A stretch of DNA of 64,000 nt from an uncultured Candidatus Saccharibacteria bacterium. Lineage in GTDB: Bacteria; Patescibacteriota; Minisyncoccia; Phycocordibacterales; Zambryskibacteraceae. The DNA lies in the NCBI GenBank assembly GCA_964504255.1, contig CAZDDU010000001.1, positions 99,512 to 163,511 on the forward strand, in the 5' to 3' direction. Below, in pieces: positions 9,811 through 44,513 of this stretch (within the stretch, counting starts at the first letter, position 1; the number at the start of each line of letters is the position of its first letter). The notes beneath the pieces are model-generated. The model did not search any database, was not told where the DNA came from, and saw nothing but the letters and a program-made list of their open reading frames with translations. A program made the position numbers and the translations under genes.

Positions 9811-10173
9811 CTAGTCAGAATATGGTGGATTCAGAAGCTTGAGTTCGTAGAGCTCACCGACGATGAATTTGATCAGGTACTCGGCAGCATCATCGTGGTA
9901 CATCTCTAGGAGTTCCTCAGCTCGATCGAGGAATGTGAGGATGTGTCCCGCGGTGGGCCCCTCCTTGCTCGCGTTCGTCAGAGACTCATTCTCATGGCCC
10001 CAACAGCGTAGTGCCCCACGGTACTTTGTAATGAGTGAGCGGAGCATGATGCGTTTGTCGCTCCTTCGTATGTCAGCTCGGAGACGCCGACCAGCGTCGT
10101 TGAGGTGGCCCCAGAAACCAAACTTAGCTACCTGCTCTTCGTCAAAACTCGGGGTTGTACCACGGTTGCCCAT
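9811..10173 (-). CDS. hypothetical protein
   Basis: 120-aa ORF; AGGAGG RBS 7 nt upstream of ATG; higher GC than neighbours. Confidence 0.45.
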   Translation of the reverse strand: MGNRGTTPSFDEEQVAKFGFWGHLNDAGRRLRADIRRSDKRIMLRSLITKYRGALRCWGHENESLTNASKEGPTAGHILTFLDRAEELLEMYHDDAAEYLIKFIVGELYELKLLNPPYSD

Positions 10174-10212
10174 TAACTCCTCCTGTAAGGTTCAAGATTC
10201 TTCAGTCAGCCT

Positions 10213-10268
10213 ACTCTCAAAATTAAAAAATGCAAAAGAAAAACTCCGATACTGTCGGAGTTTTGTAT
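10213..10268 (-). promoter_or_regulatory. terminator hairpin followed by conserved 31-bp promoter-like element (copy 1)
   Basis: Plus-strand actctcaaaattaaaaaatgcaaaagaaaaa (10213-10243) identical to 10811-10841; minus-strand reading gives hairpin + TTGCAT-16-TAGGCT. Confidence 0.4.
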
Positions 10269-10772
10269 CTAGCTCAGCTTCGCTTCATCCCAGGGCCATT
10301 TGGGGAGCCAAGCTTTGCAGAACTTGAGTGCCGCCTTGCGAATGGTTTTTGAGTGGACCCTCTTCTTTTCTGAATCGTCCTCGAAACTGTAGCTAAACTT
10401 CGGGGTGATAAAGTACACAGCGTCTTTCTCTTCAGGTAGATAGATCAGTATCGCTGGGCACTTACCGTCTTCACCTTTTCGATAGAAACGGCCCTTGAAC
10501 CCGAGTGTCTTAGCAAAGGCGGGGAAGTGTTCATGAAGTTCATCCGGAGAAATTGGGATCAATGCCCCTAATGCCTCATGGTATTGACCAATAGCCATGA
10601 GACACAAATGAACTCTTTCGTAGGCCAGCCTTTGGTGAACCGTTAGAGACTTGAGGTAATTAACGCGCTTCTCCACTTTCTTCTTTCGCGTGTTCGCGGA
10701 CGCCTTATTAGCATGGGGGTTCCATCTGCTCCAGCCCACTGCATGTTCGCGCTCATCATGACACAGTGCCAT
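10269..10772 (-). CDS. hypothetical protein
   Basis: 167-aa ORF, no recognisable domain. Confidence 0.45.
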   Translation of the reverse strand: MALCHDEREHAVGWSRWNPHANKASANTRKKKVEKRVNYLKSLTVHQRLAYERVHLCLMAIGQYHEALGALIPISPDELHEHFPAFAKTLGFKGRFYRKGEDGKCPAILIYLPEEKDAVYFITPKFSYSFEDDSEKKRVHSKTIRKAALKFCKAWLPKWPWDEAKLS

Positions 10773-10810
10773 TTTGTCTCCAAGTGTGGGTTCGTTTCTA
10801 TTTTTAGAAT

Positions 10811-10866
10811 ACTCTCAAAATTAAAAAATGCAAAAGAAAAATCCCCTAAGCCGGGCCTGGGGGATT
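10811..10866 (-). promoter_or_regulatory. terminator hairpin + conserved 31-bp promoter-like element (copy 2)
   Basis: Same 31-mer as 10213-10243; minus-strand TTGCAT-16-TATTCT; hairpin aatcccc..ggggatt. Confidence 0.4.
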
Positions 10867-10903
10867 GAAGGAATGTCCTCGTTGTGAGGATTGGAACAGA
10901 GCT

Positions 10904-11222
10904 TTAGTGGCGTCCGGGCGCGACGACGTTCAGAACAACCTTCTTCCATTCGGGAGAAGTATTGGCCTTGTCGTTGTCCAATGCCGCCTTGTACACTTCG
11001 TAGCTCTGTGCGGCAAGACCGAGCTGACGAGCTTCTCGGACAACATGGCGGCACTGGTTGTTGTGCTGCCGCCACTCTTCGGCCTCGGCCATTCTGCGCC
11101 GGAATGATTCCGCGTCTCCATCGTTTGGGTGATCTTCCTCGGTCAAGATGGAACGGAGCCCAATTCCGAAGAGACGGAGGAAGGCGTTGAGATGAATCTT
11201 CAAACCTATGAACATAACAGTG
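10904..11222 (-). CDS. hypothetical protein (start uncertain)
   Basis: ORF in locally GC-rich stretch with several overlapping antisense ORFs; most protein-like frame kept. Confidence 0.3.
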
Positions 11223-11347
11223 CTCCTATATGTGAGTTCTACATTAATAGAATCACACATCATTAAAATTGTCAAGCTACCACAATATAGAACTACTATG
11301 AGGAGGGTTAGTGGAGAAGAGGCTGTGGCGCAGATGAGTACATCTGC

Positions 11348-11403
11348 ATCCTACCAAAATATAGAAAAGCCCCGCTCATGCGGGGTTTTCTTATTTTGGT
11401 GGA
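11348..11403. repeat. second copy of the 56-bp ssrA 3'-flank/terminator
   Basis: atcctaccaaaatatagaaaagccccgctcatgcggggttttcttattttggtgga; one mismatch versus 14270-14323. Confidence 0.7.
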
Positions 11404-11466
11404 CTTAGTTAGCGAAAATTGGAATATGCTCCATCTATGGGTTTTCGAAGCCTCTGAGGTGATTTC
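11388..11466. repeat. direct repeat R copy A
   Basis: cttattttggtgga + cttagttagcgaaaattggaatatgctccatctatgggttttcgaagcctctgaggtgattt. Confidence 0.7.
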
Positions 11467-11474
11467 CAGCTCAA

Positions 11475-12200
11475 ATGATAGAATTATCTATCATGAGTTA
11501 TGAAAGCCTAAATTCTGATCTCGACAAACAAGAATTTCTATTTCTGAGTGAGAAAGATCAGCAAGTCTTAAAAGAAGGGGGGCGAAAGGTTGTGGAACTT
11601 TTACTTAAAGACTTTACAGATGAATTACCCAAAGCAATAATTTTCCCTGATACTTCCGCGAGGCCTCTCGCTCACATGTTTCTGCCTATTTTAAGGAAGT
11701 TGTCAGAAGAAAGGGGGCAAGAGATTCCGTCTTTTTATTTTTTCCAACAGGTCCATGGTGACCCATCAAATATAGAGAGAGCTGAAGAGATCCTGGATTA
11801 TGAGGGAAGGGGCTCTAAACTGGAAGAATTTTTAAAGAAGTTTCTATTTAAAGATGGTGGTGGGATAGCAATTATTGATGATTATGTCAGTGCAGAAGCA
11901 AACACTATAGGTAAAATCAGACACGCATTTGGTGACAAAAATATCCCTGCTTATGCAGTGATTGGACAGGTAAATTTTTTTCCTGATTTTGCCAAGATAA
12001 ATGTTGGGTTGCTTGATCCATATGCATCTCGTCCAGGAAGATTGTCAAAAGGTTTCGATTACAGAGAAAGTAATGCTATTGGAGTAAGTAAGGATTCTAA
12101 CTCGATCTATGTATCTAAAAATGAAAGTGTTGGGGAGGATGTTACCAAGCTGAGATCTGATATGAAAAAAGTGGGTGAGGAAATTGCTTCTGGTCTATAG
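11475..12200 (+). CDS. hypothetical protein, diverged phosphoribosyltransferase-like fold
   Basis: GIAIIDDYVSAEANTIGKI resembles the PRTase PRPP-binding loop (hhhhDDhh-TTG-T); GAGGTG RBS supplied by repeat A. Confidence 0.4.
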   Translation: MIELSIMSYESLNSDLDKQEFLFLSEKDQQVLKEGGRKVVELLLKDFTDELPKAIIFPDTSARPLAHMFLPILRKLSEERGQEIPSFYFFQQVHGDPSNIERAEEILDYEGRGSKLEEFLKKFLFKDGGGIAIIDDYVSAEANTIGKIRHAFGDKNIPAYAVIGQVNFFPDFAKINVGLLDPYASRPGRLSKGFDYRESNAIGVSKDSNSIYVSKNESVGEDVTKLRSDMKKVGEEIASGL

Positions 12201-12224
12201 CACAAAACCCACCATGAAGGTGGG

Positions 12225-12303
12225 TCGTGTTATCTGGGGACTTAGTTAGTGAAAATTGGAATATGCTCCATCTTTGGATTTTTGAAGTCTCTGAGGCGAT
12301 TTT
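12225..12303. repeat. direct repeat R copy B
   Basis: hairpin cccaccatgaaggtggg + tcgtgttatctgggga + cttagttagtgaaaattggaatatgctccatctttggatttttgaagtctctgaggcgattt. Confidence 0.7.
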
Positions 12304-12317
12304 AAACAAAACAAAAG

Positions 12318-12350
12318 GAGAGCTGGTTGGGCTCTCCTAAAATCTTTTTG
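12318..12350 (-). terminator. intrinsic terminator for 12369..12650
   Basis: ggagagc-tggttg-ggctctcc hairpin with T-run on minus strand. Confidence 0.5.
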
Positions 12351-12368
12351 GACCAGAGCACTTTCATG

Positions 12369-12650
12369 CTACTCAGGCTTCGTCTTCTTGAATCGCTCGT
12401 CCTTCTCTGCGAGCCAAGTTTCAAGGGCACCGAAGAGTTCTCCGGATTTCACGCCCAGGAGTGTGTGTGGTGGAACTAAGAGAGCATCTTTAGTTCCGTA
12501 AGTCACGTGCCGCTCCTCGCAGATTGCCCTGCCGACCGCTTCAGCGCGCTCGCGGTATTCGCGGTAGAAGTCGGGGTCACTTCCGAAGAGAGTAGTTACA
12601 ACGCCCACTAGTTGAACAGCTTCTATCACATCACTCACAGTTCTTGTCAT
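12369..12650 (-). CDS. hypothetical protein (93 aa)
   Basis: Strong AAGGAG RBS and TTGACA-17-TTTTAT promoter immediately downstream of the duplicated ssrA 3' end. Confidence 0.45.
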   Translation of the reverse strand: MTRTVSDVIEAVQLVGVVTTLFGSDPDFYREYRERAEAVGRAICEERHVTYGTKDALLVPPHTLLGVKSGELFGALETWLAEKDERFKKTKPE

Positions 12651-12712
12651 GGGGGCTCCTTTGGAGATGGTTCTACCAACATAAAATCACAATCAAAAAA
12701 GTATGTCAATAG

Positions 12713-12729
12713 TGGTGGAGATGGGCGGA
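12713..12729 (-). other. 17-nt duplicate of the ssrA 3' end (att-like core)
   Basis: tggtggagatgggcgga identical to 14317-14333, same orientation as ssrA. Confidence 0.6.
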
Positions 12730-12870
12730 CGCTTAGCTATCTCACTCCTCGGAAACCCACGGTTTTCCGAATCCTTCCTCCACGGGAGACCAGAGTGTTC
12801 TCCCGACCCCTCTCCAAGGTTCGATTCCATCACTACTAGCAGATAACACAAAACTCACCATGAAGGTGGG

Positions 12871-12949
12871 TCGTGTTATCTGGGGACTTAGTTAGTGAAA
12901 ATTGGAATATGCTCCATCTTTGGATTTTTGAAGTCTCTGAGGCGATTAT
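12871..12949. repeat. direct repeat R copy C
   Basis: Identical core to copy B, preceded by the same caccatgaaggtgg hairpin. Confidence 0.7.
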
Positions 12950-12974
12950 AGGCTAACGGTGTTAATATGATTGT

Positions 12975-13235
12975 ATGAATTTTGAAAAACCAATAACACA
13001 GGAATCTAACAAGAGGGAAGTTTTTATTAATAAGCTTCGTGAAGAAGTGGGTAGGCTAGTGGAAGCAGGAAGACTTACTCAAGAGCAAGCAGATGAGAAG
13101 ATTGCTAACGCAGAAAAGATTGAGGAGGGTCTTTCTGAAACTCCTGAAGTAGACGCAGAGATATTCGCAATTGCTGGAATATCTACGGAGGCAGAAATGA
13201 TTCAATTGTTAGGAAAAAGAAAAACTGACATTTAG
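12975..13235 (+). CDS. hypothetical protein (86 aa)
   Basis: Coiled-coil-like acidic protein; immediately downstream of repeat C. Confidence 0.4.
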   Translation: MNFEKPITQESNKREVFINKLREEVGRLVEAGRLTQEQADEKIANAEKIEEGLSETPEVDAEIFAIAGISTEAEMIQLLGKRKTDI

Positions 13236-13243
13236 TCAGTCTT

Positions 13244-13320
13244 CTTATTTTGGTGGACTTAGTTAGCGAAAATTGGAATATGCTCCATCTATGGGTTTTC
13301 GAAGCCTCTGAGGCGATTTT
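13244..13320. repeat. direct repeat R copy D
   Basis: cttattttggtgga + core nearly identical to copy A (single T/C difference). Confidence 0.7.
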
Positions 13321-13377
13321 CAAAAATGGCTCTAAATAGGGGTTTTGAACTACCTTTGTTTCAGTGCAGGGTATCTA

Positions 13378-13406
13378 TTGACAGACAGCTCTTACTATGC
13401 TATACT
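13378..13406 (+). promoter_or_regulatory. sigma70-type promoter candidate
   Basis: TTGACA-17 nt-TATACT upstream of ORF 13546. Confidence 0.45.
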
Positions 13407-13545
13407 TATTAGGTAAAGTAAGTTCTTTGAAAGATGTCATCCTGTTGAGTTTGGAAGAAGGGACGTAATTGACTTGCTGGCGAAACAGCTAAGCCGATTA
13501 TAGATTTTCTTCCAAACTCAACTCAACCCACAGGAGAAGCATACA

Positions 13546-13944
13546 ATGATTAAGTTCGTTACCACCTACCACGGCATGCACCTCAATGTCTTCCTGGTTG
13601 TCGACCAGGACCAAGCCTACCTTTTGTGCTATGAGCACGAGACGGATGAGTTCGGTTACATGTGTCCTTGTTGCATGAACGACAGTCATCGTCGAGCCAT
13701 CATGGACACGGTGAGTGAGGCTATCCGTGATGGTAACGTGAAGGGGACAGTCTTGTGGTGCAGCCACAAGAATGACTCTCCTCACCTCGGCGAAAACTTG
13801 GGCCACTATGCTCCCTTGGAGCAACGCATGTTCAAGGGTGGTTCGGCGAAAGGAATTTCTGCCGAAACTAAGGCCCTCATTCGTGAGGAAGCTTTGCGTC
13901 AGGTGGCTGTGGGAGCCATCAAGGATTTTGCGCCGCGAACGTAA
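13546..13944 (+). CDS. hypothetical Cys-rich protein (132 aa)
   Basis: AGGAGA RBS; CPCC..H motif; chosen over antisense ORF 13498..13959, which is low-complexity. Confidence 0.5.
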   Translation: MIKFVTTYHGMHLNVFLVVDQDQAYLLCYEHETDEFGYMCPCCMNDSHRRAIMDTVSEAIRDGNVKGTVLWCSHKNDSPHLGENLGHYAPLEQRMFKGGSAKGISAETKALIREEALRQVAVGAIKDFAPRT

Positions 13945-14282
13945 TAGCGGTAAACCCACTCGGTGAAGTAACCTACGAGTTCAATCCTCGTAAAACTTTC
14001 AAACAGAACGCACGACCTTAGGGTACGGCGTTCTTTTTCTTTGAATAAAACTATACCTCAAAGAAACAAGAGCTTGAGGGCAGTGGCTTTAATAGCTAAT
14101 AGAAAAGAAATGAACAGTCCACAAAATATCACAAGCTAAACTCGGGAAAGTCTTTCGAGATACTTTCGCGGGCAGATGTGGCTTTAATGAAGCGTCCCGA
14201 TATGCGCAAGCTTATCGAGTATATTGAATCCACCACCTCAGTTGGTGTGGCGTCGCATAGTAATGCGACATCCTACCAAAAT

Positions 14283-14306
14283 ATAGAAAAACCCCGCTCA
14301 TGCGGG
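14283..14306 (-). terminator. intrinsic terminator of ssrA
   Basis: ccccgc-tcat-gcgggg hairpin followed on minus strand by TTTTTCT. Confidence 0.6.
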
Positions 14307-14316
14307 GTTTTCTTAT

Positions 14317-14711
14317 TTTGGTGGAGATGGGCGGAATCGAACCGCCGTGCAAAGATGAATCAGAGTGAGGTCTACATGAGGTAGACTGCTTCATTTGGTT
14401 TCAAACATTAAGATACAAAACAGACGAAAGCTCTTAATGCTCTATCCTCGAGTGTTAGAAGGAGAGTGAGGAGGCTCTACTTCGAGTCCAAAGTATTCCA
14501 CAACTTTCAAGCCCTTGGACAAAGCTTGAGGTCATGCGCACATGCGAGCTTACGCTCTAGCGTATGCGAACTGGAAGTCCTTCATACCGAAGTATGGAGA
14601 AATCCTAGCAAAAGAATCTTTTGCAGTTGAGTTTTGAGAGGGATTTAAGAGTCCTCTCGGCTCTCTCACGCGTCACTCTGATGGTCGTCCTTGTCTAGGC
14701 CGATCATCCCC
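14317..14711 (-). ncRNA. ssrA: transfer-messenger RNA (tmRNA)
   Basis: 5' GGGGAUGAUCGGCCUAGACAAGGACG; 3' GGCGGUUCGAUUCCGCCCAUCUCCACCA; acceptor stem with G3-U70 wobble; sits directly downstream of smpB; ~395 nt. Confidence 0.75.
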
Positions 14712-14726: not shown

Positions 14727-15164
14727 TTACAAACTTCTCTTTAGGTCTCTCTCGGTGTCGCGCTTCTTGATCGATTCGCGTTTGTCGAATTCCTTCTTAC
14801 CGCGAGCAATAGCGACGCGACACTTGATAAACCTACCTTTATTATACACCGTAATTGGCACAATTGTCAAGCCCTTGGTGGCCTCGGCTGTGGCGAGTTT
14901 CGAGAGCTCGTCTTTGGTCATGAGGAGCTTCCTAACTCTTTTAGGGTCGTAGTCTGTCTTAAGATTTTTGGGCTGGTACGGAGCCACCTCTGCATTGAGG
15001 AGGAAGGCCTCTCCACCTCGGACCGAGACGAAGGAGCCGGCGAGACTCATCTTCCCAGCACGAACACTCTTCACCTCGGGACCATCTAGTTCGAGCCCCG
15101 CCTCGAACTCTTCCATAAGTTCGTAGTCGAAGCGTGCCTTCCTGTTCTCTGCGTAATTACTCAT
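14727..15164 (-). CDS. smpB: SsrA-binding protein SmpB
   Basis: ENRKARFDYEL..AGLEL.G.EVKS.R.G...L..SFV; C-terminal Lys/Arg tail. Confidence 0.9.
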   Translation of the reverse strand: MSNYAENRKARFDYELMEEFEAGLELDGPEVKSVRAGKMSLAGSFVSVRGGEAFLLNAEVAPYQPKNLKTDYDPKRVRKLLMTKDELSKLATAEATKGLTIVPITVYNKGRFIKCRVAIARGKKEFDKRESIKKRDTERDLKRSL

Positions 15165-17525: not shown

Positions 17526-17599
17526 CCGCCCGTAGCTCAGTTGGTTAGAGCACAGAGCTTATACCTCTGGGGTCCTTGGTTCGAATCCAAGCGGGCGGA
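17526..17599 (+). tRNA. tRNA with anticodon UAU (Ile-AUA by standard code); C1-G72; no encoded CCA
   Basis: Cloverleaf: CCGCCCG/CGGGCGG acceptor, TAGCTCAGTTGGTTAGAGC D-arm, CAGAG-CTTATAC-CTCTG anticodon arm, TTCGAAT T-loop. Confidence 0.6.
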
Positions 17600-17638
17600 C
17601 AAGAAAAATCCCCAAACAAAAGTTCGGGGACATGTAAA

Positions 17639-18445
17639 TTACTGATCCTTCATAAGCACGAGGAGTGCGGCTCTTGCTTCCTCGGCACTCTTGTACACCC
17701 TGGTCTTCACAGTGATGTTCGGTACCTTCACTGGATTCGAGAGGACACCCAAGGGTTCTTGTGAGTCTGTGCGTCGAAACATTACTCCAGCAGATGATGT
17801 GATCTTAGTCACTCCATCACGAACGCACATAAGGGACTTAACCTCGTACGAGCTCTCAAGGAAGTACACAGCCTTCTGCTGGCTGAAGTAGTTCACATTC
17901 GCCAGCCCATTCTTCACATCTTTGATCCGCCAGATGTGGTCGTTGCCATACTCCTTCCAGAGTGGTCTGCCAAAGGCATCGAACTCAGTAACTCTCCAGA
18001 AGCCCGAGTAGAAGCGAGTCTTACTCGCAACCTCTAGACCATTCGTTGTGTCACTTGGGTTCTGTACATTCCAGTCGGAGTTTTGAAGCAGGTTTGCCCC
18101 AGTACTACCGTATGGGTAGATGTTGTAACCGTAGTAGTTCCTCGCCGCGATGAAGAAAGTCTTACCCTCTTCGATCATGAAGCTTGTTCTATACTCGTCG
18201 GGCAGACGCCGTATCCACCAAGGTAGACCCAGGTAGTATGCACCTGTGTCTGGTGGGGTAGGACTTACATAGATGTCACTCATCTCGATCCAATAGGGTG
18301 GATTCGAGTCGATCATGATGATGTCGACGACGCACATTTGTTTGGGCTCTTCGGGCTCAATGATCGTCGGCCTCTCCTCAGAAGTGCAGTTGAGCACAAT
18401 GCTGAACAAGAGGAAGAGCAAGATAACTCTGATAACTCGGCGCAT
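17639..18445 (-). CDS. hypothetical lipoprotein / secreted protein
   Basis: Signal peptide MRRVIRVILLFLLFSIVLNCTSE; no known domain. Confidence 0.5.
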   Translation of the reverse strand: MRRVIRVILLFLLFSIVLNCTSEERPTIIEPEEPKQMCVVDIIMIDSNPPYWIEMSDIYVSPTPPDTGAYYLGLPWWIRRLPDEYRTSFMIEEGKTFFIAARNYYGYNIYPYGSTGANLLQNSDWNVQNPSDTTNGLEVASKTRFYSGFWRVTEFDAFGRPLWKEYGNDHIWRIKDVKNGLANVNYFSQQKAVYFLESSYEVKSLMCVRDGVTKITSSAGVMFRRTDSQEPLGVLSNPVKVPNITVKTRVYKSAEEARAALLVLMKDQ

Positions 18446-31214: not shown

Positions 31215-31301
31215 GGAGAGATGGATGAGTGGTTTAAATCAACAGTTTACTAAACTGTCGTTCCTTAATTGGAACCGCGAGTTCGAATCTCGCTCTCTCC
31301 G
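31215..31301 (+). tRNA. type II tRNA, Ser-like (G73), anticodon reads ACU by my fold
   Basis: GGAGAGA/TCTCTCC acceptor, 3-bp D-stem, ACAGT-TTACTAA-ACTGT anticodon arm, 18-nt variable arm, GCGAG-TTCGAAT-CTCGC T-arm. Confidence 0.55.
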
Positions 31302-31325
31302 CATGTGTGCCTCTATAATAGAGAG

Positions 31326-36786: not shown

Positions 36787-37911
36787 ATGTATAATGAGCA
36801 TTATATGGCATTTCTCGGGAAGTTCTTTGGTAAGAAAGAGTCTCCTTCCGTCGTCGGGGTAGATATCGGCTCTTCTGCTATCAAAGTTGTTCAGATTAAG
36901 AAGAAGAGCGGTCAAGCAGTGCTCGAGACTTACGGCGAGCTCGCTCTTGGTCCATACGGAGGTGCGTCTATAGGCCAGGCGGTAAACTTACCCCAAGACA
37001 AAGTAGCCTCAGCTCTATTCGACCTTATGCGAGAGAAGGAGGTCAACATCACCACCACTCAAGCGGGAATCTCTATACCGTTCGGTTCCTCTCTAATGTC
37101 GGTAATTGAGATGCCAGAGGTTAGTCAAAAGCAACTCGAGGTGATGGTCCCTATCGAAGCGAGGAAGTATATACCAGTACCTGTGAACGAGGTGATGCTC
37201 GACTGGTCGGTCATCCCCAAGCCTTCGAATCCAAATGATGATGAGGACGAGGATAAGAAGAACGCTTTGAAGCGCATCGATGTGCTTGTAGTCGCTATAC
37301 ACAACGACACTATTGCTCGGTATCAAAATATTATTCAAAAGGCTGGGCTCGAACCAGGGTTCTTCGAGATAGAGATTTTCTCCACAATGAGGAGTGTGGT
37401 AGATGAGAGTCTGACCCCGGTCATGGTTATGGATATGGGCGCGGCCTCAACCAAGCTCTACATTATTGAGCGAGGGATCATCCGCGCCTCGCATACAGTG
37501 AATCGCGGGGCTCAAGACATTACCTCTGCCATTGCTCAGTCACTTGGACTCTCAATCGAGAAGGCCGAGATCATGAAGAGAGAGATTGGGGCATCGGGGC
37601 AGGATCCGACTCTGGCCAAGATTATTTCTCTCGTACTCGACTTCATCTTTGCCGAGACCAACAGGACGCTACTCAACTTCGAGAAGAAGTACAACAAGAG
37701 TGTCTCGAAGGTGGTACTTGTCGGTGGTGGAGCAGCAATGAAGGGGTTGAATGAACTCACCAAGAATGCCTTCAAGACTGAGGCGGTGATGGGGAACCCC
37801 TTCGGCAAGCTTGCCACCCCAGCATTTATAGAGAATATTTTGAAAGAGACTGGTCCAGAGTTCGCTGTAGCCATTGGCTCAGCACTTAGGAGACTAAATG
37901 ATCTTAATTAG
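36787..37911 (+). CDS. pilM: type IV pilus assembly ATPase-like protein PilM
   Basis: VVGVDIGSSAIKVVQIKKK actin-like fold; locus context. Confidence 0.7.
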   Translation: MYNEHYMAFLGKFFGKKESPSVVGVDIGSSAIKVVQIKKKSGQAVLETYGELALGPYGGASIGQAVNLPQDKVASALFDLMREKEVNITTTQAGISIPFGSSLMSVIEMPEVSQKQLEVMVPIEARKYIPVPVNEVMLDWSVIPKPSNPNDDEDEDKKNALKRIDVLVVAIHNDTIARYQNIIQKAGLEPGFFEIEIFSTMRSVVDESLTPVMVMDMGAASTKLYIIERGIIRASHTVNRGAQDITSAIAQSLGLSIEKAEIMKREIGASGQDPTLAKIISLVLDFIFAETNRTLLNFEKKYNKSVSKVVLVGGGAAMKGLNELTKNAFKTEAVMGNPFGKLATPAFIENILKETGPEFAVAIGSALRRLNDLN

Positions 37912-38000
37912 GTCGAAGTGCTTGTGCTGAGAGACTGAAAGAGTCGAAGTGTGTATAGAACTCTGTGTTTGTGTGCCAACTTGTTCTATAATTTAGAAAG

Positions 38001-38672
38001 ATGGAACCGAAATTCCAATCATCATTCATACCCAAAGGACCGTTGGCAACAACCGGCACTGTAACCAAGACTTCTCGCCAATCAAACACGAGTTTCCTTG
38101 GTACTTTGGCTGTATTTGTTTTCGTCCTGTCTATACTTGCTACCTTAGGTGCTGCGGGTTACGAATATTATTTGAAGAAGGATATCGGCAACCTGGCAGA
38201 GAAACTCCTTGCCGCTAAGTCTACCCTCGAACCAGAGATCATCCAGAAGATCAGTGACTTAGATGAGCGTATTAACGCCACAGAGAGTTTGTTGAACCAA
38301 CACATTATCCTCAGCCCTCTCTTTGCATATCTTGAATCCTATACTGTTAAGACTGTTCAATTGACTCATTTCAAATATGCTTCTGAAGATGGGGTACTCA
38401 AGCTCTCTATGCGAGGTAAGTCTCGCGGGTACTCTACATTGGCTTACCAAGCACAACTCTTTAACAGTAGTGATTTTATGAGGGATGTTGTCTTTGGGGA
38501 CTTGTCCCTCGATGAGACGGGTAATGTGGACTTCACCTTCAAGGCCATTCTTGAACCATCAATAATTGCGTTTAAAAGTGGGGATGATGAAGTGGTCGAG
38601 ATAGAGACAGCACCAGAGGCTGCCGGAGTAGGAATCCAGGACGCAGTTACAACTAACGGAACCACACAATAA
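38001..38672 (+). CDS. PilN-like bitopic membrane protein
   Basis: Short cytoplasmic N-terminus, one TM, periplasmic coiled coil; follows pilM. Confidence 0.45.
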   Translation: MEPKFQSSFIPKGPLATTGTVTKTSRQSNTSFLGTLAVFVFVLSILATLGAAGYEYYLKKDIGNLAEKLLAAKSTLEPEIIQKISDLDERINATESLLNQHIILSPLFAYLESYTVKTVQLTHFKYASEDGVLKLSMRGKSRGYSTLAYQAQLFNSSDFMRDVVFGDLSLDETGNVDFTFKAILEPSIIAFKSGDDEVVEIETAPEAAGVGIQDAVTTNGTTQ

Positions 38673-38673
38673 C

Positions 38674-39222
38674 ATGAGGAACTCTACTGCTTTACTCCTA
38701 CTCTTGATCTCAGTTGTAGTGGTTTATGCAGTGGGTTTCCCTTACTACGACAAGATTATGATTCTCAGGAATCAGTCTAGCCAGTACAAGGAATCACTAG
38801 AAAAGGTTGATGTTTTAATCAAGACAAGGAACGATCTTGAGGCTAAGTATAAGAACATGCCTCAAGATGAGATCGCTAAATTGGAGAAGGTGTTGCCCGA
38901 CAATGTTGATACCGTTAACTTGGCGGTAAACTTTGACTCCATTGCTGCCAAGTACGGCATCTCTATCAAAAAGATAAGTACAGTAGACAGCGTCGATCAA
39001 TCTGGTGCAGCTATTATACAAGACACCACCGGTGGGGCTTACAAGCCAGTGACAGTGGTCTTCTCCTTCACAGCGGCATATCAAGACTTCAGAGATTTTA
39101 TTGGTGATATCGAGCAGAGTCTTAGGATTACAGATATTAAGAGTGTCTCTTTCGAATCAAACGAAAAAGGTTTGTACGAATTTAGTCTAGCGGTGCAGAC
39201 TTATTGGCTAAAGACTAAATAA
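38674..39222 (+). CDS. PilO-like bitopic membrane protein
   Basis: N-terminal TM then coiled coil; position after the PilN-like gene. Confidence 0.45.
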   Translation: MRNSTALLLLLISVVVVYAVGFPYYDKIMILRNQSSQYKESLEKVDVLIKTRNDLEAKYKNMPQDEIAKLEKVLPDNVDTVNLAVNFDSIAAKYGISIKKISTVDSVDQSGAAIIQDTTGGAYKPVTVVFSFTAAYQDFRDFIGDIEQSLRITDIKSVSFESNEKGLYEFSLAVQTYWLKTK

Positions 39223-39232
39223 ACTTAATACC

Positions 39233-39535
39233 ATGGACTTCTTCCACAAAAATCAAAAAATGATCCTCGTAGTGGTTCTCCTGGCGTGCGGATTCTACTT
39301 TTATAGCACCTACTTTAAGTCTGATGCAGCGCTCGTAGTAACTCAAAATGATATTACAGCTCAACAAGTAGGTGCTGAGGTTATAGAACTACAAAACAGA
39401 ATTAGCTCAGTTAATTTGCGACAAGGACTCTTTACCTCATCTCTGTATAACAAGCTTATTGATTTCTCGGTGCCAATACTAGAGCAACCAAGAGGGAGAA
39501 TTAATCCATTTGGACCAATAGTCTTTGGTGAATAA
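39233..39535 (+). CDS. hypothetical small membrane protein (PilP position)
   Basis: One TM helix, 100 aa. Confidence 0.35.
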   Translation: MDFFHKNQKMILVVVLLACGFYFYSTYFKSDAALVVTQNDITAQQVGAEVIELQNRISSVNLRQGLFTSSLYNKLIDFSVPILEQPRGRINPFGPIVFGE

Positions 39536-39547
39536 AGTTAGTTCCTA

Positions 39548-41272
39548 ATGACAATACTTGATGTACTAAAGGATAAGAAGGTGATCAAGGCAACAGACGT
39601 TGCCTCAATCGAAGAAGAGGCTAAGAGCACTGGCCTTTCTTTAGAGCAGGTGCTCGTGGGCCGTGGTGTACCTCCACAGAGGATTCTTGAGGCCAAGGGT
39701 GCCGAGCTCGAGATACCTACAAGGAGTCTGAAGAATGTCTCAGTACCTTCGAAAATGCTCGAATATATTTCGGAAGAGAGTGCTGAGCACTACAAGGTGG
39801 TGCCTATAGGCACTAAGGACGGAGTACTCGAGATTGGTGTGGTTGACCCAGACGACATTGAGGCTAGAGACGCACTCAACTTTATCTCGTCCAAGGCGGG
39901 GATGCCCTACAAACTATTTTTAATAACTGAAGAGGATTTCGACAGAGTTTTTGCTCAGTACAAAGGGCTTTCAAGTGAGGTGACTCAAGCGCTCTCGGAG
40001 CTCGATAGTGAGCTCACCCAGAGAGAGAATGTCATTCTAGAAAAGACAGATAAGGAGAAGGAGGCTCAACAAGATAGAGAGGCTAAGATTGTCGAGGATG
40101 CACCGGTGACGAAGATCGTGGCTACTATACTTTCGTACGCTGCTGAGGGAGCGGCTTCGGATGTGCATATCGAGCCCCTCCACGAGACAGTTCGAGTCCG
40201 CTTCCGTGTAGATGGAGTTCTTAACACCTCGCTTACTCTCCCTATCAAGGTTCACTCAGCGGTAGTGGCACGCATAAAGATTCTTTCTAACATGCGTTTA
40301 GACGAGAAGAGGAAGCCTCAAGACGGTCGCTTCTCTGCCAAGGTTGATGACAGGCGTATCGACTTCCGTGTTTCGACATTCCCAACAACTTTCGGCGAGA
40401 AGGTGGTGATGAGAATTCTTGACCAGTCTAAGGGAGTGAAGACTTTAAATGATTTAGGGTTATCTCCTGAAAACATGCAACTTATTAAGGATGCTATTGA
40501 TCGTCCTTATGGCCTTATTCTCATCTCTGGTCCTACCGGAAGTGGTAAGTCGACAACTCTTTATGCCATGCTAAACGAGCTCGATAAGGACCATGAGAAC
40601 GTGCTCTCGCTTGAAGACCCGGTCGAGTACAATATGGAGGGTGTGAGTCAGTCGCAGGTTCAGCCAGAGATTGATTACACCTTTGCCACCGGACTACGCA
40701 CTACTCTTCGCCAAGACCCAGATGTGATCATGGTTGGAGAGATCCGCGACAAGGAGACAGCCCAGCTTGCTATCCAGGCGGCACTTACAGGCCACCTTGT
40801 GCTCTCTACTATCCACACCAACAATGCTATCGGTGTGATCCCTAGACTTATCGACATGGGTGTTGACCCATACCTTATCGCACCAACTCTTGTCCTAGCT
40901 ATGGCTCAGAGACTGGTATCTAAACTAGTAGATGGTGGTGGTAAGCCAGTGCCCGTATCTGAAAGCATGAAGCTCATGATGGAGAAGCAGTTCGCTGACC
41001 TACCTGCCGAGTTCAGGAAGAAGATTCCAACAGGCAAGGAGTTCTATGAGGCAGCGCCAACTCCAGAGAGTGTAACAGGAGTATCCGGTCGAGTAGCCGT
41101 CATGGAGGTGCTCTCAATGGATAAGGATATAGAACAAGTGCTTTTAAAGAATCCAACAGAAATAGAGCTCTTTAAGATGGCAAGGTCTAAGGGCATGCTA
41201 ACCATGAAGGAGGACGCTATCATCAAAGCCTTTGGCAGAATGATTCCTTTCGAAGAAGTAAATACGCTATAA
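39548..41272 (+). CDS. pilB: type IV pilus assembly ATPase PilB (GspE family)
   Basis: Walker A LISGPTGSGKSTTLYAML, Asp box, His box, tetracysteine-like region. Confidence 0.85.
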   Translation: MTILDVLKDKKVIKATDVASIEEEAKSTGLSLEQVLVGRGVPPQRILEAKGAELEIPTRSLKNVSVPSKMLEYISEESAEHYKVVPIGTKDGVLEIGVVDPDDIEARDALNFISSKAGMPYKLFLITEEDFDRVFAQYKGLSSEVTQALSELDSELTQRENVILEKTDKEKEAQQDREAKIVEDAPVTKIVATILSYAAEGAASDVHIEPLHETVRVRFRVDGVLNTSLTLPIKVHSAVVARIKILSNMRLDEKRKPQDGRFSAKVDDRRIDFRVSTFPTTFGEKVVMRILDQSKGVKTLNDLGLSPENMQLIKDAIDRPYGLILISGPTGSGKSTTLYAMLNELDKDHENVLSLEDPVEYNMEGVSQSQVQPEIDYTFATGLRTTLRQDPDVIMVGEIRDKETAQLAIQAALTGHLVLSTIHTNNAIGVIPRLIDMGVDPYLIAPTLVLAMAQRLVSKLVDGGGKPVPVSESMKLMMEKQFADLPAEFRKKIPTGKEFYEAAPTPESVTGVSGRVAVMEVLSMDKDIEQVLLKNPTEIELFKMARSKGMLTMKEDAIIKAFGRMIPFEEVNTL

Positions 41273-41279
41273 TATAAAT

Positions 41280-41666
41280 ATGAAAAAGCCATACACAGTA
41301 CTCTTGGTCGATGACGATAAGTTCCTCCTCGGAATGTACCAAAAGAAGTTTGATAAGCTTGGCGCTAAGTCTGAGATGTCTGCAGTGCCAGAAGAGGCTC
41401 TTAATAAGTTACGAGAGGGTGCCAAGTACGACATAGTTGTCCTAGATGTCATTATGCCAGGTATGGATGGACTAGAACTTTTGAAGAAAATTCGTGAGGA
41501 GAAGCTTGGTGAGGGTTCGATCTTTATCATGTTAACGAACGAGAATACCTCAACCAGGATCGAGGAGGCCAAAGCCTTAGGTGTTGCAGGCTATATCGTT
41601 AAGGCCACCTCAATACCATCTGAGGTTGCAGAAGAAATTATCAAGATTGCTGATGCAGAGAATTAA
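41280..41666 (+). CDS. single-domain response regulator (CheY-like receiver)
   Basis: VLLVDDD...D(54)VIMPGMDGLELL...K receiver motifs. Confidence 0.75.
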   Translation: MKKPYTVLLVDDDKFLLGMYQKKFDKLGAKSEMSAVPEEALNKLREGAKYDIVVLDVIMPGMDGLELLKKIREEKLGEGSIFIMLTNENTSTRIEEAKALGVAGYIVKATSIPSEVAEEIIKIADAEN

Positions 41667-41669
41667 TCT

Positions 41670-42734
41670 ATGGTCGCATCTCACTCACTCTTAGACGAGT
41701 TGGTAGATATTGTGAACAAGGAGGGTGCATCAGACCTCCATATTGCTGAAGGTAGGAAGCCTATTATTCGTGTATCGAGCTTCCTCATCCCACTTGAGAA
41801 GTATCCTGCTATGACCGTTGAGGATGTTAAGGGCTTTTTCAATATCTTTCTCACACCTGAGAACTTGAAGGAGTTTGATATGAAGCAGGAAGCTAACTTT
41901 GCCTATGCTCACAAGAATGGTTCTCGCTTCCGAGGCAACGCCTTTGAGACGGTGGGCAAGCGTGCTATTGCACTTCGCCTTATTCCGACGAGGATCAGGA
42001 CCTTCGAAGAATTAAATTTGCCAAATATTTTGAGCCACTTCACTTCTAAGCAACAAGGATTCTTCCTTGTGGTAGGTCCAGCGGGTCAGGGTAAGTCCAC
42101 AACGCTTGCAAGCATGATCGAGCTTATCAACAACGACAGACTCGAGCACATCGTGACTATCGAAGATCCTATTGAGTTTCTCTTTGAGCCAAAGAAGTCA
42201 ATGATCGACCAAAGAGAGGTGAAGACTGACACTCCAGACTTCCACACAGCACTTTGGGGCATTTTCCGTCAGGATGCAGATGTCATCATGGTTGGAGAGA
42301 TGCGCGAGCCTCATACTATTGCGACTGCTGTAACGGCAGCTGAGACTGGTCACCTTGTGCTCTCCACCCTCCACACCAACACGGCAGCTCAAACTGTGGA
42401 CCGCATTATTGACTCCTTCCCAGCAGAGAGTCAGGATCAGATTCGTTACCAACTTTCTAGCTCACTCCTCGGCATTTTCTCTCAGAGACTCTTGCCTCGT
42501 ATTAAAGGAGGTCTCATCCCAGCTTATGAACTTCTCATCAACAATACCGCTGTGTCTAATCTTATAAGAGAGAAGCGCACCCACGAACTAAATTCAATTA
42601 TCGAGACCTCAAGTGAGGAGGGGATGATCGACTTCAATCGCTCACTTGGAGAGTTGGTTAGACTCGGTGAGATTACACCAGAGAATGCCTTCCAATACTC
42701 TACAAACCCAAGGTCACTAGAACGCATGATTTAA
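41670..42734 (+). CDS. pilT: twitching-motility/retraction ATPase PilT
   Basis: Walker A LVVGPAGQGKSTTLASMI; ~350 aa PilT size. Confidence 0.85.
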   Translation: MVASHSLLDELVDIVNKEGASDLHIAEGRKPIIRVSSFLIPLEKYPAMTVEDVKGFFNIFLTPENLKEFDMKQEANFAYAHKNGSRFRGNAFETVGKRAIALRLIPTRIRTFEELNLPNILSHFTSKQQGFFLVVGPAGQGKSTTLASMIELINNDRLEHIVTIEDPIEFLFEPKKSMIDQREVKTDTPDFHTALWGIFRQDADVIMVGEMREPHTIATAVTAAETGHLVLSTLHTNTAAQTVDRIIDSFPAESQDQIRYQLSSSLLGIFSQRLLPRIKGGLIPAYELLINNTAVSNLIREKRTHELNSIIETSSEEGMIDFNRSLGELVRLGEITPENAFQYSTNPRSLERMI

Positions 42735-42741
42735 TAAAGCA

Positions 42742-43950: not shown

Positions 43951-43993
43951 GCTAAGGTGTATAATGAGTGGGTATTAAAAATTTATAATTTAC

Positions 43994-44461
43994 ATGCTTA
44001 AAAGGACAACAAAAGGCTTTACCCTCATCGAACTCTTGGTGGTTATTGCCATCATCGGTATCTTGAGTTCAGTCGTGCTCGCATCGCTTAACAGTGCCAG
44101 AACAAAGGCAAATGACTCAAAGGTTAAGGCTCAGCTTGCTACCTTGAGAGCTTCTGCAGAACTTTACTACGACAACAACAACAGTTCTTACGGAGTAGCA
44201 GTCAGCATGGCGGCTCCAGCTTCTGTTTGTGCTGGTCCTGGTATGTTCCTCGACACTACATCAGGTATGGCTAACTTGACCAACAACTCGGCAGCATGGC
44301 CATCAGGTACATTACTTAGTTGCCAAGTTACCGCAACTTCCCCAGTGGGTTATGCAGTGTCTGCAAACCTATCTACAGCTGGCACCTTCTGGTGTGTCGA
44401 CAGCTCTGGTAAGTCAGCATCTACCAGTGCCCAGCAAGCTTCTGGTGACATTACTTGCTAG
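43994..44461 (+). CDS. type IV major pilin paralogue 1
   Basis: Prepilin leader MLKRTTKG|FTLIELLVVIAIIGILSSVVLASL; C-terminal Cys pair. Confidence 0.75.
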   Translation: MLKRTTKGFTLIELLVVIAIIGILSSVVLASLNSARTKANDSKVKAQLATLRASAELYYDNNNSSYGVAVSMAAPASVCAGPGMFLDTTSGMANLTNNSAAWPSGTLLSCQVTATSPVGYAVSANLSTAGTFWCVDSSGKSASTSAQQASGDITC

Positions 44462-44484
44462 TTTTTAAACCGCAAGGATAATAC

Positions 44485-44513
44485 AAAAAAGCTCGGGTAA
44501 CCGAGCTTTTTTG
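44485..44513 (+). terminator. intrinsic terminator
   Basis: aaaaaagctcgg-gtaa-ccgagctttttt. Confidence 0.6.

What the first reader, a model, noticed from the sequence alone, without database searches (positions are those of the whole stretch)
11348..14323. Integrase-less accessory segment at the ssrA (tmRNA) 3' end with att-like duplications
ssrA ends at 14317 (…CCCATCTCCACCA) and is followed by its terminator, ccccgctcatgcgggg + T-run. The 17 terminal nt of ssrA (tggtggagatgggcgga) recur at 12713-12729 in the same orientation. The 56-bp ssrA 3' flank plus terminator recurs, with one mismatch, at 11348-11403. Between these landmarks lie four cargo ORFs (a PRTase-like 241 aa, 93 aa, 86 aa and a Cys-rich 132 aa) and four copies of a 63-80 bp repeat. 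No integrase or transposase is recognisable. tmRNA 3' ends are classic integration sites for islands and prophages. The pattern fits repeated site-specific integration with subsequent decay, or a mobilisable integrase-less element, possibly with a 7-nt TCCACCA crossover core. An 11-nt T-loop-like GGTTCGATTCC also sits on the opposite strand at 12818-12828, suggesting scrambled tRNA-like fragments.
Basis: partly seen in the sequence, partly recalled or inferred. Interest (0 to 1): 0.8.

Follow-up and report, generated by a model that had tools for sequence, protein, structure and literature searches.

The report
Variable gene-cassette array behind tmRNA gene
Directly behind the tmRNA gene of this tiny-genome (Patescibacteria) bacterium lies a 3.5-kb stack of four single-gene cassettes, each ending in the same ~65-base signature, which is missing or differently composed in near-identical relatives and has no recombination enzyme nearby, so it looks like a small gene-capture site of a kind not yet described for these bacteria.

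Summary
ssrA (tmRNA) lies on the minus strand at 14319-14711.

Related metagenome contigs show the segment is accessory. One relative with 97%-identical flanks (L025) joins ssrA almost directly to window 10841. Others carry subsets: tmRNA|C|T2, tmRNA|D|T1, tmRNA|D|T2, tmRNA|C|D|T2 and A|B|T3, against tmRNA|A|B|C|D|T1 in the window. Every cassette starts about 10 nt after a TCCAC(CA) core with its own terminator and ends with rep plus the same core. Eight independent assemblies break exactly at that core.

No integrase or transposase was found in the array, the window or the related loci. The cargo is unannotated; the 241-aa protein is only weakly PRTase-like.

The 17-mer and the "T-loop" do not mark the array boundary. 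They belong to a separate non-coding mini-element of about 170 nt with a conserved two-hairpin core. The same element is inserted after tRNA-Ile in L025, where the window has the empty site.

Best reading: site-specific accretion of integrase-less cassettes at the ssrA 3' end by a trans-encoded recombinase, then reshuffling by homologous recombination. A homologous-recombination-only explanation is not excluded. I rate it a new variant of a known kind, interest about 0.6.

The parts
14319..14711 (-). ssrA (tmRNA) gene. Its 3' end ...CATCTCCACCA carries the core TCCACCA at 14319-14325.
   Evidence: ARAGORN; Rfam RF00023 at 100 bits. SmpB lies immediately upstream at 14727-15164 (Pfam).
13253..14320 (-). 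Cassette A (1068 nt). Contains the a-type start with the ssrA terminator (14287-14312) and a second hairpin (14246-14269). Carries its own promoter (13378-13406, +), a 16-nt perfect inverted repeat (13444-13459 / 13507-13522), the 132-aa Cys-rich ORF (13546-13944, +) and rep4 (13255-13321).
   Evidence: Independent contigs L104-L106 confirm that A is adjacent to tmRNA. A is absent from L001, L011, L012, L112 and L025.
12882..13252 (-). Cassette B (371 nt). Start AAATAAGAAGA plus terminator (13220-13244), 86-aa ORF (12975-13235, +; weak DUF2680 match), rep3 (12884-12950).
   Evidence: In L107-L109, B is joined to a different terminal segment, T3, instead of C.
12236..12881 (-). Cassette C (646 nt). 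Contains the b-type start AGATAACACGA plus terminator (12853-12871), the nested mini-element, a promoter-like TTGACA and RBS, the 93-aa ORF (12369-12650, -), a terminator (12316-12338) and rep2 (12238-12304).
   Evidence: C follows tmRNA directly in L001, L026 and L112. It is absent from L011 and L012.
12713..12881 (-). Non-coding mini-element.
   Evidence: nhmmer and covariance-model hits in L001, L026, L025, L027, L046 (two copies), L035 and L049. Compensatory pairs in both hairpins. Insertion polymorphism at tRNA-Ile between the window (empty) and L025 (108-nt insert with a 17-nt duplication). No Rfam family.
11399..12235 (-). Cassette D (837 nt). b-type start plus terminator (12207-12225), 241-aa ORF (11475-12200, +; remote PRTase-like), rep1 (11401-11467).
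   Evidence: D follows tmRNA directly in L011 and L012. It sits between C and T2 in L113-L116. Protein analysis.
10842..11398 (-). Variable terminal segment T1. An a-type start that duplicates the ssrA 3' flank (11324-11400, terminator 11366-11389), followed by a 103-aa (or 123-aa from TTG) ORF at 10904-11215/11275 (-).
   Evidence: D2. Replaced by T2 (95-aa ORF) in L001, L012 and L113-L116, and by T3 (membrane ORF) in L107. Nearly absent from L025.
10800..10850 (-). Conserved right-hand boundary: terminator plus TTTTTCTTTTGCATTTTTTAATTTTGAGAGTA (promoter-like, TTGCAT-N16-TATTCT). Homology to all relatives resumes here. A second copy lies at about 10212-10270.

Best explanation
The stretch 10842-14318 is a strain-variable array built at the extreme 3' end of the tmRNA gene of a Parcubacteria-type Patescibacterium. 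It holds four single-gene cassettes (A 1068, B 371, C 646 and D 837 nt) and a replaceable terminal segment.

Read along the tmRNA strand, every cassette has the same plan. It begins just after the core TCCAC(CA), and about 10 nt further on it carries an intrinsic terminator. That terminator serves as the ssrA terminator when the cassette is first in line. The cassette then carries a gene with its own promoter, in either orientation. It ends with a conserved ~65-nt sequence (rep) that itself ends in TCCAC(CA).

The most likely mechanism has three steps.
1. Cassettes enter by site-specific recombination. The cassette-borne site is rep-TCCACCA-terminator (attP-like). The chromosomal site is tmRNA-TCCACCA-terminator (attB), or an existing rep junction.
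2. The recombinase is encoded elsewhere in the genome or on a helper element, so the cassettes are non-autonomous.
3. Successive entries push older cassettes away from ssrA. Homologous recombination between the 65-108-nt junction repeats then deletes and reshuffles units.

What is shown: the anatomy; the presence/absence polymorphism; the empty site; the location of junctions in the core; the conservation of rep across species.

What is inferred: a circular intermediate, the type of recombinase, and the direction of events (gain versus loss).

Nested in cassette C is a different, non-coding mini-element.
For: 1. Empty site. L025 has SmpB 90% identical and flanks 97% identical in nucleotides. 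It reads tmRNA-TCCACCA, its own terminator, about 40 nt, then window 10841 downward.

2. Alternative contents in contigs 97-100% identical to the window where they align: tmRNA|C|T2 (L001), tmRNA|D|T1 (L011), tmRNA|D|T2 (L012), tmRNA|C|D (L112), C|D|T2 (L113-L116) and A|B|T3 (L107-L109).

3. tmRNA and rep share only TCCAC(CA); a local alignment is not above shuffles. Even so, cassettes are joined to either one at exactly that point.

4. Eight independent metagenome contigs that contain SmpB and tmRNA stop at ...TCC...TCCA or ...TCCAC. This is expected if the assembly graph branches there.

5. rep is found only in these arrays, always on the tmRNA strand. It occurs 4 times in the window and nowhere else in it. 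It also occurs downstream of ssrA in other species: L026 (SmpB 87%, two copies) and L032 (SmpB 68%, one copy), plus two copies in L016.

6. rep is as conserved as tmRNA itself and more conserved than the coding DNA. Against L026: rep 80-86%, coding regions 74-78%. Against L032: rep 75-79%, the infC region 67%.

7. rep has no conserved RNA fold and no Rfam match, which fits a protein-binding DNA site.

8. Terminators are enriched, 14 against 4.5 +/- 2.4 expected, with one at every cassette start.

9. In the a-type junction, the terminator palindrome extends down to the core (z = -5.3 and -5.8).

10. GC content differs between cassettes: 0.37-0.41 in B and D, 0.50-0.52 in A and C.
Against: No recombinase was found in the array, in the 64-kb window, or between ssrA and infC in relatives.

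No circular or excised form was seen.

All variants are subsets of one order (A, B, C, D, T), which deletions alone could produce.

The rep after cassette B in L107 is a chimera of two rep types. The 3' half of rep co-varies with the start type of the next cassette. Both show exchanges inside the repeat, which means homologous recombination or gene conversion.

rep2 and rep3 with their starts are 97% identical over 108 nt, as expected from homogenisation.

The shared core is only 5-7 nt.
Confidence: 0.5

Rival explanations
1. Homologous-recombination hot spot with no dedicated recombinase. The region behind ssrA is a flexible island. Cassettes are swapped, lost and gained through RecA-dependent recombination between the 65-108-nt junction repeats, the conserved tmRNA gene and the conserved downstream flank. 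The DNA is taken up from relatives. rep persists because it provides the homology, or because it has some unrelated regulatory role.
For: The rep in L107 is chimeric, and the 3' half of rep co-segregates with the neighbouring start type. Paired junction blocks are 97% identical. Every observed variant keeps the same relative cassette order. Relative to L001, D appears as an 837-nt unit with a duplicated block of about 100 nt. The window encodes a type IV pilus / DNA-uptake-type gene set: PilM, PilO, two T2SSE-family ATPases, a T2SSF-family platform protein and a prepilin peptidase. No recombinase was found.
Against: It does not explain how unrelated genes each acquired the same rep in the same orientation, whatever the orientation of the gene. 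It does not explain why rep ends in the tmRNA-terminal TCCAC(CA). It does not explain tmRNA|cassette junctions, where the only shared sequence to the left of the junction is 5-7 nt. rep is conserved across species at least as well as tmRNA.
Confidence: 0.28
2. Inert debris. The segment is the decayed remnant of one or a few classical integrase-bearing islands or prophages that once integrated at ssrA. The repeats are leftover att scars and nothing is mobile now.
For: The 80-nt direct repeat (tmRNA 3' end plus flank) at 14246-14325 and 11324-11403 brackets the A-D block like attL/attR. A displaced 17-nt tmRNA 3' end is present. There is no integrase. Tandem and decayed islands at tmRNA genes are well known (PMC4383910; PMC3146451).
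Against: At least seven different arrangements occur among contigs that are 97-100% identical to the window where they align. rep is conserved across species with entirely different cargo (L026, L032, L016). The units are single genes of 0.37-1.07 kb, each with a complete start and end. None of the cargo has phage or island hallmarks (PHROGs).
Confidence: 0.1
3. Single-strand (HUH/Y1, IS200/IS605-like) or integron-like hairpin-dependent insertion. The cassettes move as single-stranded DNA. They are cut 3' of TCCAC at the foot of the long terminator palindrome, by an enzyme supplied in trans.
For: The crossover lies at the foot of an extended imperfect palindrome. Related genomes extend the ssrA and tRNA-Ile terminator palindromes into the acceptor strand. 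Insertion is oriented and leaves no target duplication beyond the core.
Against: The rep end has no comparable hairpin; only a 5-bp stem with no covariation is predicted. No Y1 transposase or IntI was found. There is no GTTRRRY/RYYYAAC box at the crossover. The terminators are sufficiently explained by the need to terminate ssrA.
Confidence: 0.08

Closest known systems
Tandem genomic islands at tmRNA/tRNA genes (Islander-type islands; Dehalococcoides ssrA-GIs, PMC3146451; 'accretion' and cis-mobilisable elements)
   Same: Insertion occurs at the 3' end of the single-copy ssrA gene. Several units stand in tandem downstream, each bounded by a copy of the ssrA end. The content is strain-specific. 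Some units lack integrases, like the cis-mobilisable elements discussed in PMC3146451.
   Different: The units here are 0.37-1.07 kb single genes rather than islands of many kb. No unit carries an integration module; DsiB and DsiA serine recombinases are absent. The ssrA-derived repeat is only 5-7 nt instead of 20 nt. The conserved boundary is a ~65-nt sequence unrelated to ssrA. Every unit supplies a terminator.
Integron cassette arrays and CALINs (clusters of attC sites lacking an integrase)
   Same: An array of mostly single-gene cassettes of unknown function, separated by a repeated ~65-110-nt site in one orientation. The cassette complement differs between close strains. As in a CALIN, no integrase is adjacent.
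   Different: There is no IntI, attI or Pc. rep is conserved in sequence and does not fold into an attC-type bulged hairpin. It has no R/L boxes. The cassettes have their own promoters and terminators and lie in both orientations. The array is anchored on the tmRNA gene.
Tycheposons and their remnants in Prochlorococcus islands (bioRxiv 10.1101/2020.12.28.424599)
   Same: The host has a streamlined genome and few classical mobile elements. Flexible islands lie next to tRNA and tmRNA genes. Newly arriving elements push older ones further into the island. Partial tRNA repeats are scattered through the islands.
   Different: Tycheposons encode tyrosine recombinases and replication modules and are several kb long. 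Here no such genes are present, and the boundary repeat is not a partial tRNA.
MITE-like non-autonomous elements and T-loop-class tRNA integration (Williams 2002 sublocation classes, cited from memory and)
   Same: This comparison concerns the nested mini-element. It is short and non-coding, has terminal inverted sequences, duplicates 16-17 nt running from the T-loop to the 3' end of the t(m)RNA gene, and shows presence/absence polymorphism.
   Different: Its terminal sequences are copies of whichever gene it sits next to, tRNA-Ile or tmRNA. No fixed-end transposon or fixed-specificity integrase element does this. It has a conserved two-hairpin core with covariation and matches no Rfam family.

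Membership tests
tRNA/tmRNA-integrating genomic island (Islander definition) | An integrase gene (tyrosine or serine recombinase) inside the island | tested here: not met
   No recombinase domain in any ORF of 8.2-15.2 kb (Pfam; PHROGs; NCBIfam). None in the ORFs of at least 180 aa from 17.6 kb onward that were scanned.
tRNA/tmRNA-integrating genomic island (Islander definition) | An intact target gene at one end and a displaced 3' fragment of it, as a direct repeat, at the other end | tested here: inconclusive
   An 80-nt direct repeat brackets the A-D block, but only 7 nt of it is tmRNA sequence (D2). The proper 17-nt tmRNA fragment belongs to the nested mini-element.
tRNA/tmRNA-integrating genomic island (Islander definition) | An uninterrupted (empty) site in related genomes | tested here: met
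   L025 joins tmRNA plus terminator to window 10841, with 97% identical flanks.
Integron / CALIN | IntI integrase with attI and Pc upstream of the array | tested here: not met
   The array starts at ssrA/SmpB. No tyrosine recombinase is present.
Integron / CALIN | attC sites: imperfect palindromes with R''/L''-L'/R' boxes, with the crossover in GTTRRRY | tested here: not met
   The consensus fold of 11 rep copies is a single 5-bp hairpin with no covariation. No GTTRRRY lies at the junction. The IntegronFinder attC model itself was not run.
Integron / CALIN | An array of short, mostly single-ORF cassettes separated by a repeated site, variable between strains | tested here: met
Cis-mobilisable element (CIME) / accretion | Flanked by functional att sites but encoding neither integration nor transfer functions, and mobilised by a related element's integrase | not testable with these tools
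   The first half (att-like ends, no integrase) is met. The existence of a cognate integrase elsewhere in the genome cannot be checked from a 64-kb window.
Dehalococcoides-type ssrA-GI | A 20-bp ssrA direct repeat plus the DsiB/DsiA serine-recombinase integration module | tested here: not met
   No serine recombinase. The cassette repeat shares 5-7 nt with ssrA. Family features taken from PMC3146451.
IS200/IS605-type or PATE element | Subterminal hairpins at both ends and a Y1 (HUH) transposase, in cis or in trans | tested here: not met
   A hairpin is present only at the start end. The rep end has none. No Y1_Tnp hit.
Phosphoribosyltransferase (type I PRTase) for the 241-aa cargo | PRTase fold with a PRPP-binding loop; a significant match to Pfam Pribosyltran | tested here: inconclusive
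   The query has no Pfam hit. 2 of 31 family members hit PF00156 at E = 0.002. A family profile against PDB gives HPRT as the best hit at E = 0.002, over profile positions 120-214. The AF2 model has pLDDT 86. Foldseek gives only weak mixed SIS and PRTase matches, TM 0.3-0.45.

The most novel reading that the evidence does not exclude
Patescibacteria of this lineage possess a tmRNA-anchored gene-capture system that works like an integron. Single-gene cassettes carry a previously undescribed ~70-bp recombination site (rep-TCCACCA) and a built-in ssrA terminator. An as-yet unidentified trans-acting recombinase inserts them one after another at the tmRNA 3' end. Alongside it, a non-coding mini-element with a structured core homes to the 3' ends of tRNA-Ile and tmRNA genes, using flanks copied from or matched to its target. 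That would imply nucleic-acid-guided or template-copying targeting.
Probability: 0.3. Interest if true: 0.8.

Novelty: new variant of a known kind. Interest (0 to 1): 0.6.

Why it matters
Patescibacteria (CPR) have genomes of about 1 Mb, few recognisable mobile elements, and no established route for gaining accessory genes.

A compact cassette array at the essential single-copy tmRNA gene would be a concrete, testable mechanism of gene flux in these organisms. It is polymorphic between near-identical populations, and its junction signature is conserved across species.

It would also extend the integron-like principle (many small cassettes, one docking site) to a new docking site and a new site sequence.

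The nested mini-element is a second lead. Its ends match whichever t(m)RNA gene it sits beside, so it may point to an unusual targeting mechanism or to an uncatalogued small RNA.

If the variation turns out to be plain homologous recombination, the locus is still a useful marker of strain-level variation, but it is ordinary.

Tried and rejected
**rep as a known RNA.** There was no Rfam hit at E <= 5; the only matches were terminator look-alikes. No conserved fold or covariation was found.

**rep as a sigma-70 promoter.** No consensus promoter lies in rep. The 132-aa gene has its own TTGACA-17-TATACT promoter downstream of rep4.

**rep derived from tmRNA or from the mini-element.** Local alignments were not above shuffles.

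**rep or the mini-element core on phages.** rep was absent from IMG/VR. The core pattern gave two contigs that read identically over the stretch examined, which is about what chance predicts.

**Metagenome scan with a 19-mer of rep.** Of 11 loci returned, 10 were chance matches. Only L016 carries true rep copies.

**Search for a recombinase.** Pfam was run on 30 ORFs of at least 180 aa from 17.6 kb onward and on the small ORFs around the array. All unannotated proteins were inspected by eye. ORFs downstream of ssrA in six relatives were examined. Nothing was found.

**Cargo annotation.** Pfam, PHROGs, NCBIfam, PADLOC and PDB sequence searches gave nothing for the 93-, 132-, 103/123-, 167- and 120-aa proteins, and only a sub-threshold DUF2680 match for the 86-aa protein.

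**Mini-element as a second tmRNA, tRNA, RNase P RNA or SRP RNA.** No ARAGORN or Rfam support.

**Covariance model of the mini-element core.** It recovered only the copies already known.

**Lookups that returned nothing.** One Pfam call failed on a bad coordinate. The exact-sequence lookup of the 93-aa protein found nothing.

Full report
**Observation.** ARAGORN and Rfam place a complete tmRNA gene on the minus strand at 14319-14711. smpB lies just upstream at 14727-15164.
- The 17-mer TGGTGGAGATGGGCGGA is at 12713 and 14319.
- The 56-nt flank plus terminator is at 11348-11403 and 14270-14325, with one mismatch. The similarity extends to 80 nt.
- A ~65-nt repeat has four copies, at 11401, 12238, 12884 and 13255. 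They are the only four in the window, against zero in shuffles.
- The plus-strand GGTTCGATTCC is at 12818.
- The four ORFs exist.
- None of them, nor any neighbour, matches an integrase or transposase family.

**Anatomy on the tmRNA strand.** Read downstream from ssrA, the region is strictly modular. After the tmRNA end ...CATC-TCCAC(CA) comes a short spacer and an intrinsic terminator. Next comes a gene, then the ~65-nt repeat (rep). rep ends in ...CTAACTAAG-TCCAC(CA), and after it the next unit starts with its own spacer and terminator.
- This gives cassettes A (13253-14320; 132-aa ORF), B (12882-13252; 86 aa), C (12236-12881; 93 aa) and D (11399-12235; 241 aa).
- A terminal segment T1 follows (10842-11398; 103/123 aa).
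- The unit lengths equal the repeat spacings of 371, 646 and 837 nt.
- Two start types occur. Type a (CAAAATAAGAA plus terminator) is found after tmRNA, rep4 and rep1. Type b (AGATAACACGA plus terminator) is found after rep3 and rep2.
- Terminator-like sites are three times more frequent than in shuffles, and one sits at each cassette start.
- The 132-aa gene has its own strong promoter.
- Genes lie in both orientations relative to rep.
- GC content differs between units: 0.37-0.41 for B and D, 0.50-0.52 for A and C.

**Relatives.** Exact-protein lookups and a SmpB-based scan returned contigs from related Patescibacteria/Parcubacteria MAGs and from many metagenomes.
- L025 has flanks 97% identical to the window. 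It reads tmRNA-TCCACCA, a terminator of its own, about 40 nt, and then window 10841 downward.
- Other contigs, 97-100% identical where they align, carry different subsets: tmRNA|C|T2 (L001), tmRNA|D|T1 (L011), tmRNA|D|T2 (L012), tmRNA|C|D (L112), C|D|T2 (L113-L116) and A|B|T3 (L107-L109).
- T1, T2 and T3 are unrelated genes that occupy the same slot before a conserved terminator/promoter motif at about 10800-10850.
- Eight independent assemblies that contain smpB and ssrA stop at ...TCC...TCCA or ...TCCAC. An assembly graph that branches at that base would give this result.
- These independent contigs also confirm the window's junctions, so a collapsed-repeat artefact is excluded.

**The repeat.** rep occurs downstream of ssrA in other species with quite different cargo. 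L026 (SmpB 87%) has two copies, L032 (SmpB 68%) has one, and the metagenome contig L016 has two. One L016 cassette carries a TIR-like protein.
- rep is 80-86% identical to the window in L026 and 75-79% in L032. That is as conserved as tmRNA and more conserved than the neighbouring coding DNA.
- It has no conserved secondary structure, no Rfam relative, no similarity to tmRNA beyond the terminal 5-7 nt and no copy in viral contigs.
- In the a-type junction, the terminator palindrome extends down to the core, TCCACCAAAATA...TATTTTGGTAGGA.
- I read rep plus core plus terminator as a protein-recognised recombination site.

**Mechanism.** The simplest account of unrelated genes all carrying the same oriented end signature, docked at a 5-7-nt core they share with the tmRNA terminus, is site-specific recombination. 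The cassette-borne site would be rep-TCCACCA-terminator, and the chromosomal site tmRNA-TCCACCA-terminator.
- Each cassette must bring a terminator, because it separates ssrA from its own.
- CCA need not be encoded. b-type junctions read TCCAC-AG, and several relatives also lack an encoded CCA.
- No recombinase is present in the array, in the 64-kb window or in the ssrA-infC interval of relatives. The enzyme, if it exists, acts in trans.

There is also clear evidence for homologous recombination or gene conversion inside the repeats.
- The rep after B in L107 is a chimera of two rep types.
- The 3' half of rep co-varies with the following start type.
- rep2 and rep3 with their starts are 97% identical over 108 nt.
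- All variants keep one relative order.

I therefore give about 0.5 to site-specific accretion followed by homologous reshuffling. I give about 0.28 to homologous recombination alone, about 0.1 to inert debris, and less to a single-strand hairpin mechanism.

**The 17-mer and the 'T-loop'.** These do not mark the array. The stretch 12713-12881 is a distinct non-coding element. On the tmRNA strand it consists of:
- a palindromic terminator;
- a conserved core, GAGAGGGGTCGGGAGA-loop-TCTCCCGTGGAGGAAGG-(variable insert)-TCGGAAAACCGTGGGTTTCCGAGGAGTGAGAT;
- a direct 17-nt copy of the tmRNA 3' end.

The same core lies after ssrA in L001, L026, L035 and L046, and after tRNA-Ile(TAT) in L025, L046 and L027.
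- At tRNA-Ile the window has the empty site (17526-17600 followed directly by its terminator). L025 has a 108-nt insertion with a 17-nt duplication, ATCCAAGCGGGCGGACA.
- Conversely, L025's ssrA lacks the element.
- The flanking copies match whichever gene is adjacent.
- The two core hairpins show compensatory changes: 4 pairs and 7 cells, with at most 8 of 500 shuffles reaching the observed values.
- No Rfam family matches it.
- More distant relatives (L034, L038, L040) extend the ssrA or tRNA-Ile terminator palindrome into the acceptor strand.
- I cannot decide between three readings: a T-loop-class mini-integrative element, a small RNA gene with tRNA-minihelix-like ends, or template-switch products.

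**Cargo.** The 93-, 132-, 103/123-, 167- and 120-aa proteins have no match in any profile library; the 86-aa protein has only a sub-threshold DUF2680 match.
- The 241-aa protein belongs to a family of about 160 representatives.
- A profile of that family hits hypoxanthine PRTases in the PDB at E = 0.002.
- Two of 31 members weakly hit Pfam Pribosyltran.
- A confident AF2 model (pLDDT 86) gives only weak, mixed SIS and PRTase fold matches.
- 'PRTase-like' is therefore plausible but unproven.

**Comparison and novelty.** The closest known systems are:
- tandem islands at tmRNA genes, notably the Dehalococcoides ssrA-GIs, which have 20-bp ssrA repeats and a serine-recombinase module and include integrase-less cis-mobilisable units (PMC3146451);
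- tycheposon-built islands (bioRxiv 10.1101/2020.12.28.424599);
- integron arrays and CALINs.

The present locus works like these, through docking at one site, tandem accretion and strain-specific content. It nevertheless fails their membership tests. It has no integrase module, no attC structure and no IntI. Only 5-7 nt of target sequence is repeated. The boundary sequence is new, and the units are single-gene cassettes that each carry a terminator.

I rate it a new variant of a known kind, with interest about 0.6. There is about a 0.3 chance that it represents a real tmRNA-anchored cassette-capture system plus a target-matched mini-element, and that would deserve about 0.8.

Noticed in passing
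window 17526-17640; L025 7440-7631: The tRNA-Ile(TAT) gene in the window is an empty site for the mini-element. L025, with 97%-identical flanks, carries a 108-nt insertion there with a 17-nt duplication of the tRNA 3' end and an inverted copy of its T-arm.
   Followed up: yes
window 10212-10270 and 10800-10850: A second boundary repeat: a terminator hairpin followed by TTTTTCTTTTGCATTTTTTAATTTTGAGAGTA (promoter-like, TTGCAT-N16-TATTCT). It flanks the 167-aa ORF on both sides and also marks the end of T1, T2 and T3. The genes further downstream may be modular as well.
   Followed up: partly
window 11324-11347 vs 14246-14269; L107 565-585: In the a-type start, a second hairpin follows ...GGTAGGAT. 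Its stem sequence is completely different between the two window copies (GCAGATG/CATCTGC vs GTCGCAT/ATGCGAC), yet it stays paired. In the third copy (L107), GCAGTTG...CAGATGC pairs only partly. The structure, not the sequence, looks conserved.
   Followed up: no
L034 7938-8300; L038 10894-11140; L040 10879-11200; L035 3237-3320: In more distant Patescibacteria, the ssrA terminator is a long palindrome that includes the acceptor 3' strand (26 bp and perfect in L034). It is followed by several tmRNA-3'-end-like repeats (GTACTCACGGTCCCGCCAT). L034 shows the same extension after tRNA-Ile.
   Followed up: partly
L016 1-828 (minus strand): A rep-bounded cassette in another metagenome carries a protein that starts MAKSIFFSWQSD... 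and gives weak TIR-effector matches in PADLOC (E = 0.0016). This hints that cassette cargo may include defence genes.
   Followed up: partly
window 13444-13459 / 13507-13522: A perfect 16-nt inverted repeat (GTTGAGTTTGGAAGAA / TTCTTCCAAACTCAAC) lies between the promoter and the start codon of the 132-aa Cys-rich ORF. It is operator- or attenuator-like.
   Followed up: no
window 31215-31302 and 17526-17600; also L038 1351-1438: Unusual anticodons: tRNA-Ser(ACT) next to tRNA-Ser(GCT), and tRNA-Ile(TAT). The tRNA-Ile(TAT) is conserved next to ftsH/smpB across the clade.
   Followed up: no
window 36787-47460: A cluster of type IV pilus / DNA-uptake-type genes: PilM, PilO, two T2SSE-family ATPases, a T2SSF-family platform protein and a prepilin peptidase. 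This is a plausible route for acquiring cassette DNA from relatives.
   Followed up: no
L032 13284-13925 (minus strand): A reverse-transcriptase-like ORF with a YCDD motif lies about 7.5 kb downstream of ssrA in the relative L032, beyond the conserved infC block. No link to the cassette array was seen.
   Followed up: no
window 9811-10173; L026 4926-5309; L032 6909-7328: A conserved small protein starting MGNRGTTPS(F/W)D(E/D)EQ is the first gene after the last rep in L026 and L032. In the window it lies two genes further on. No family match.
   Followed up: no
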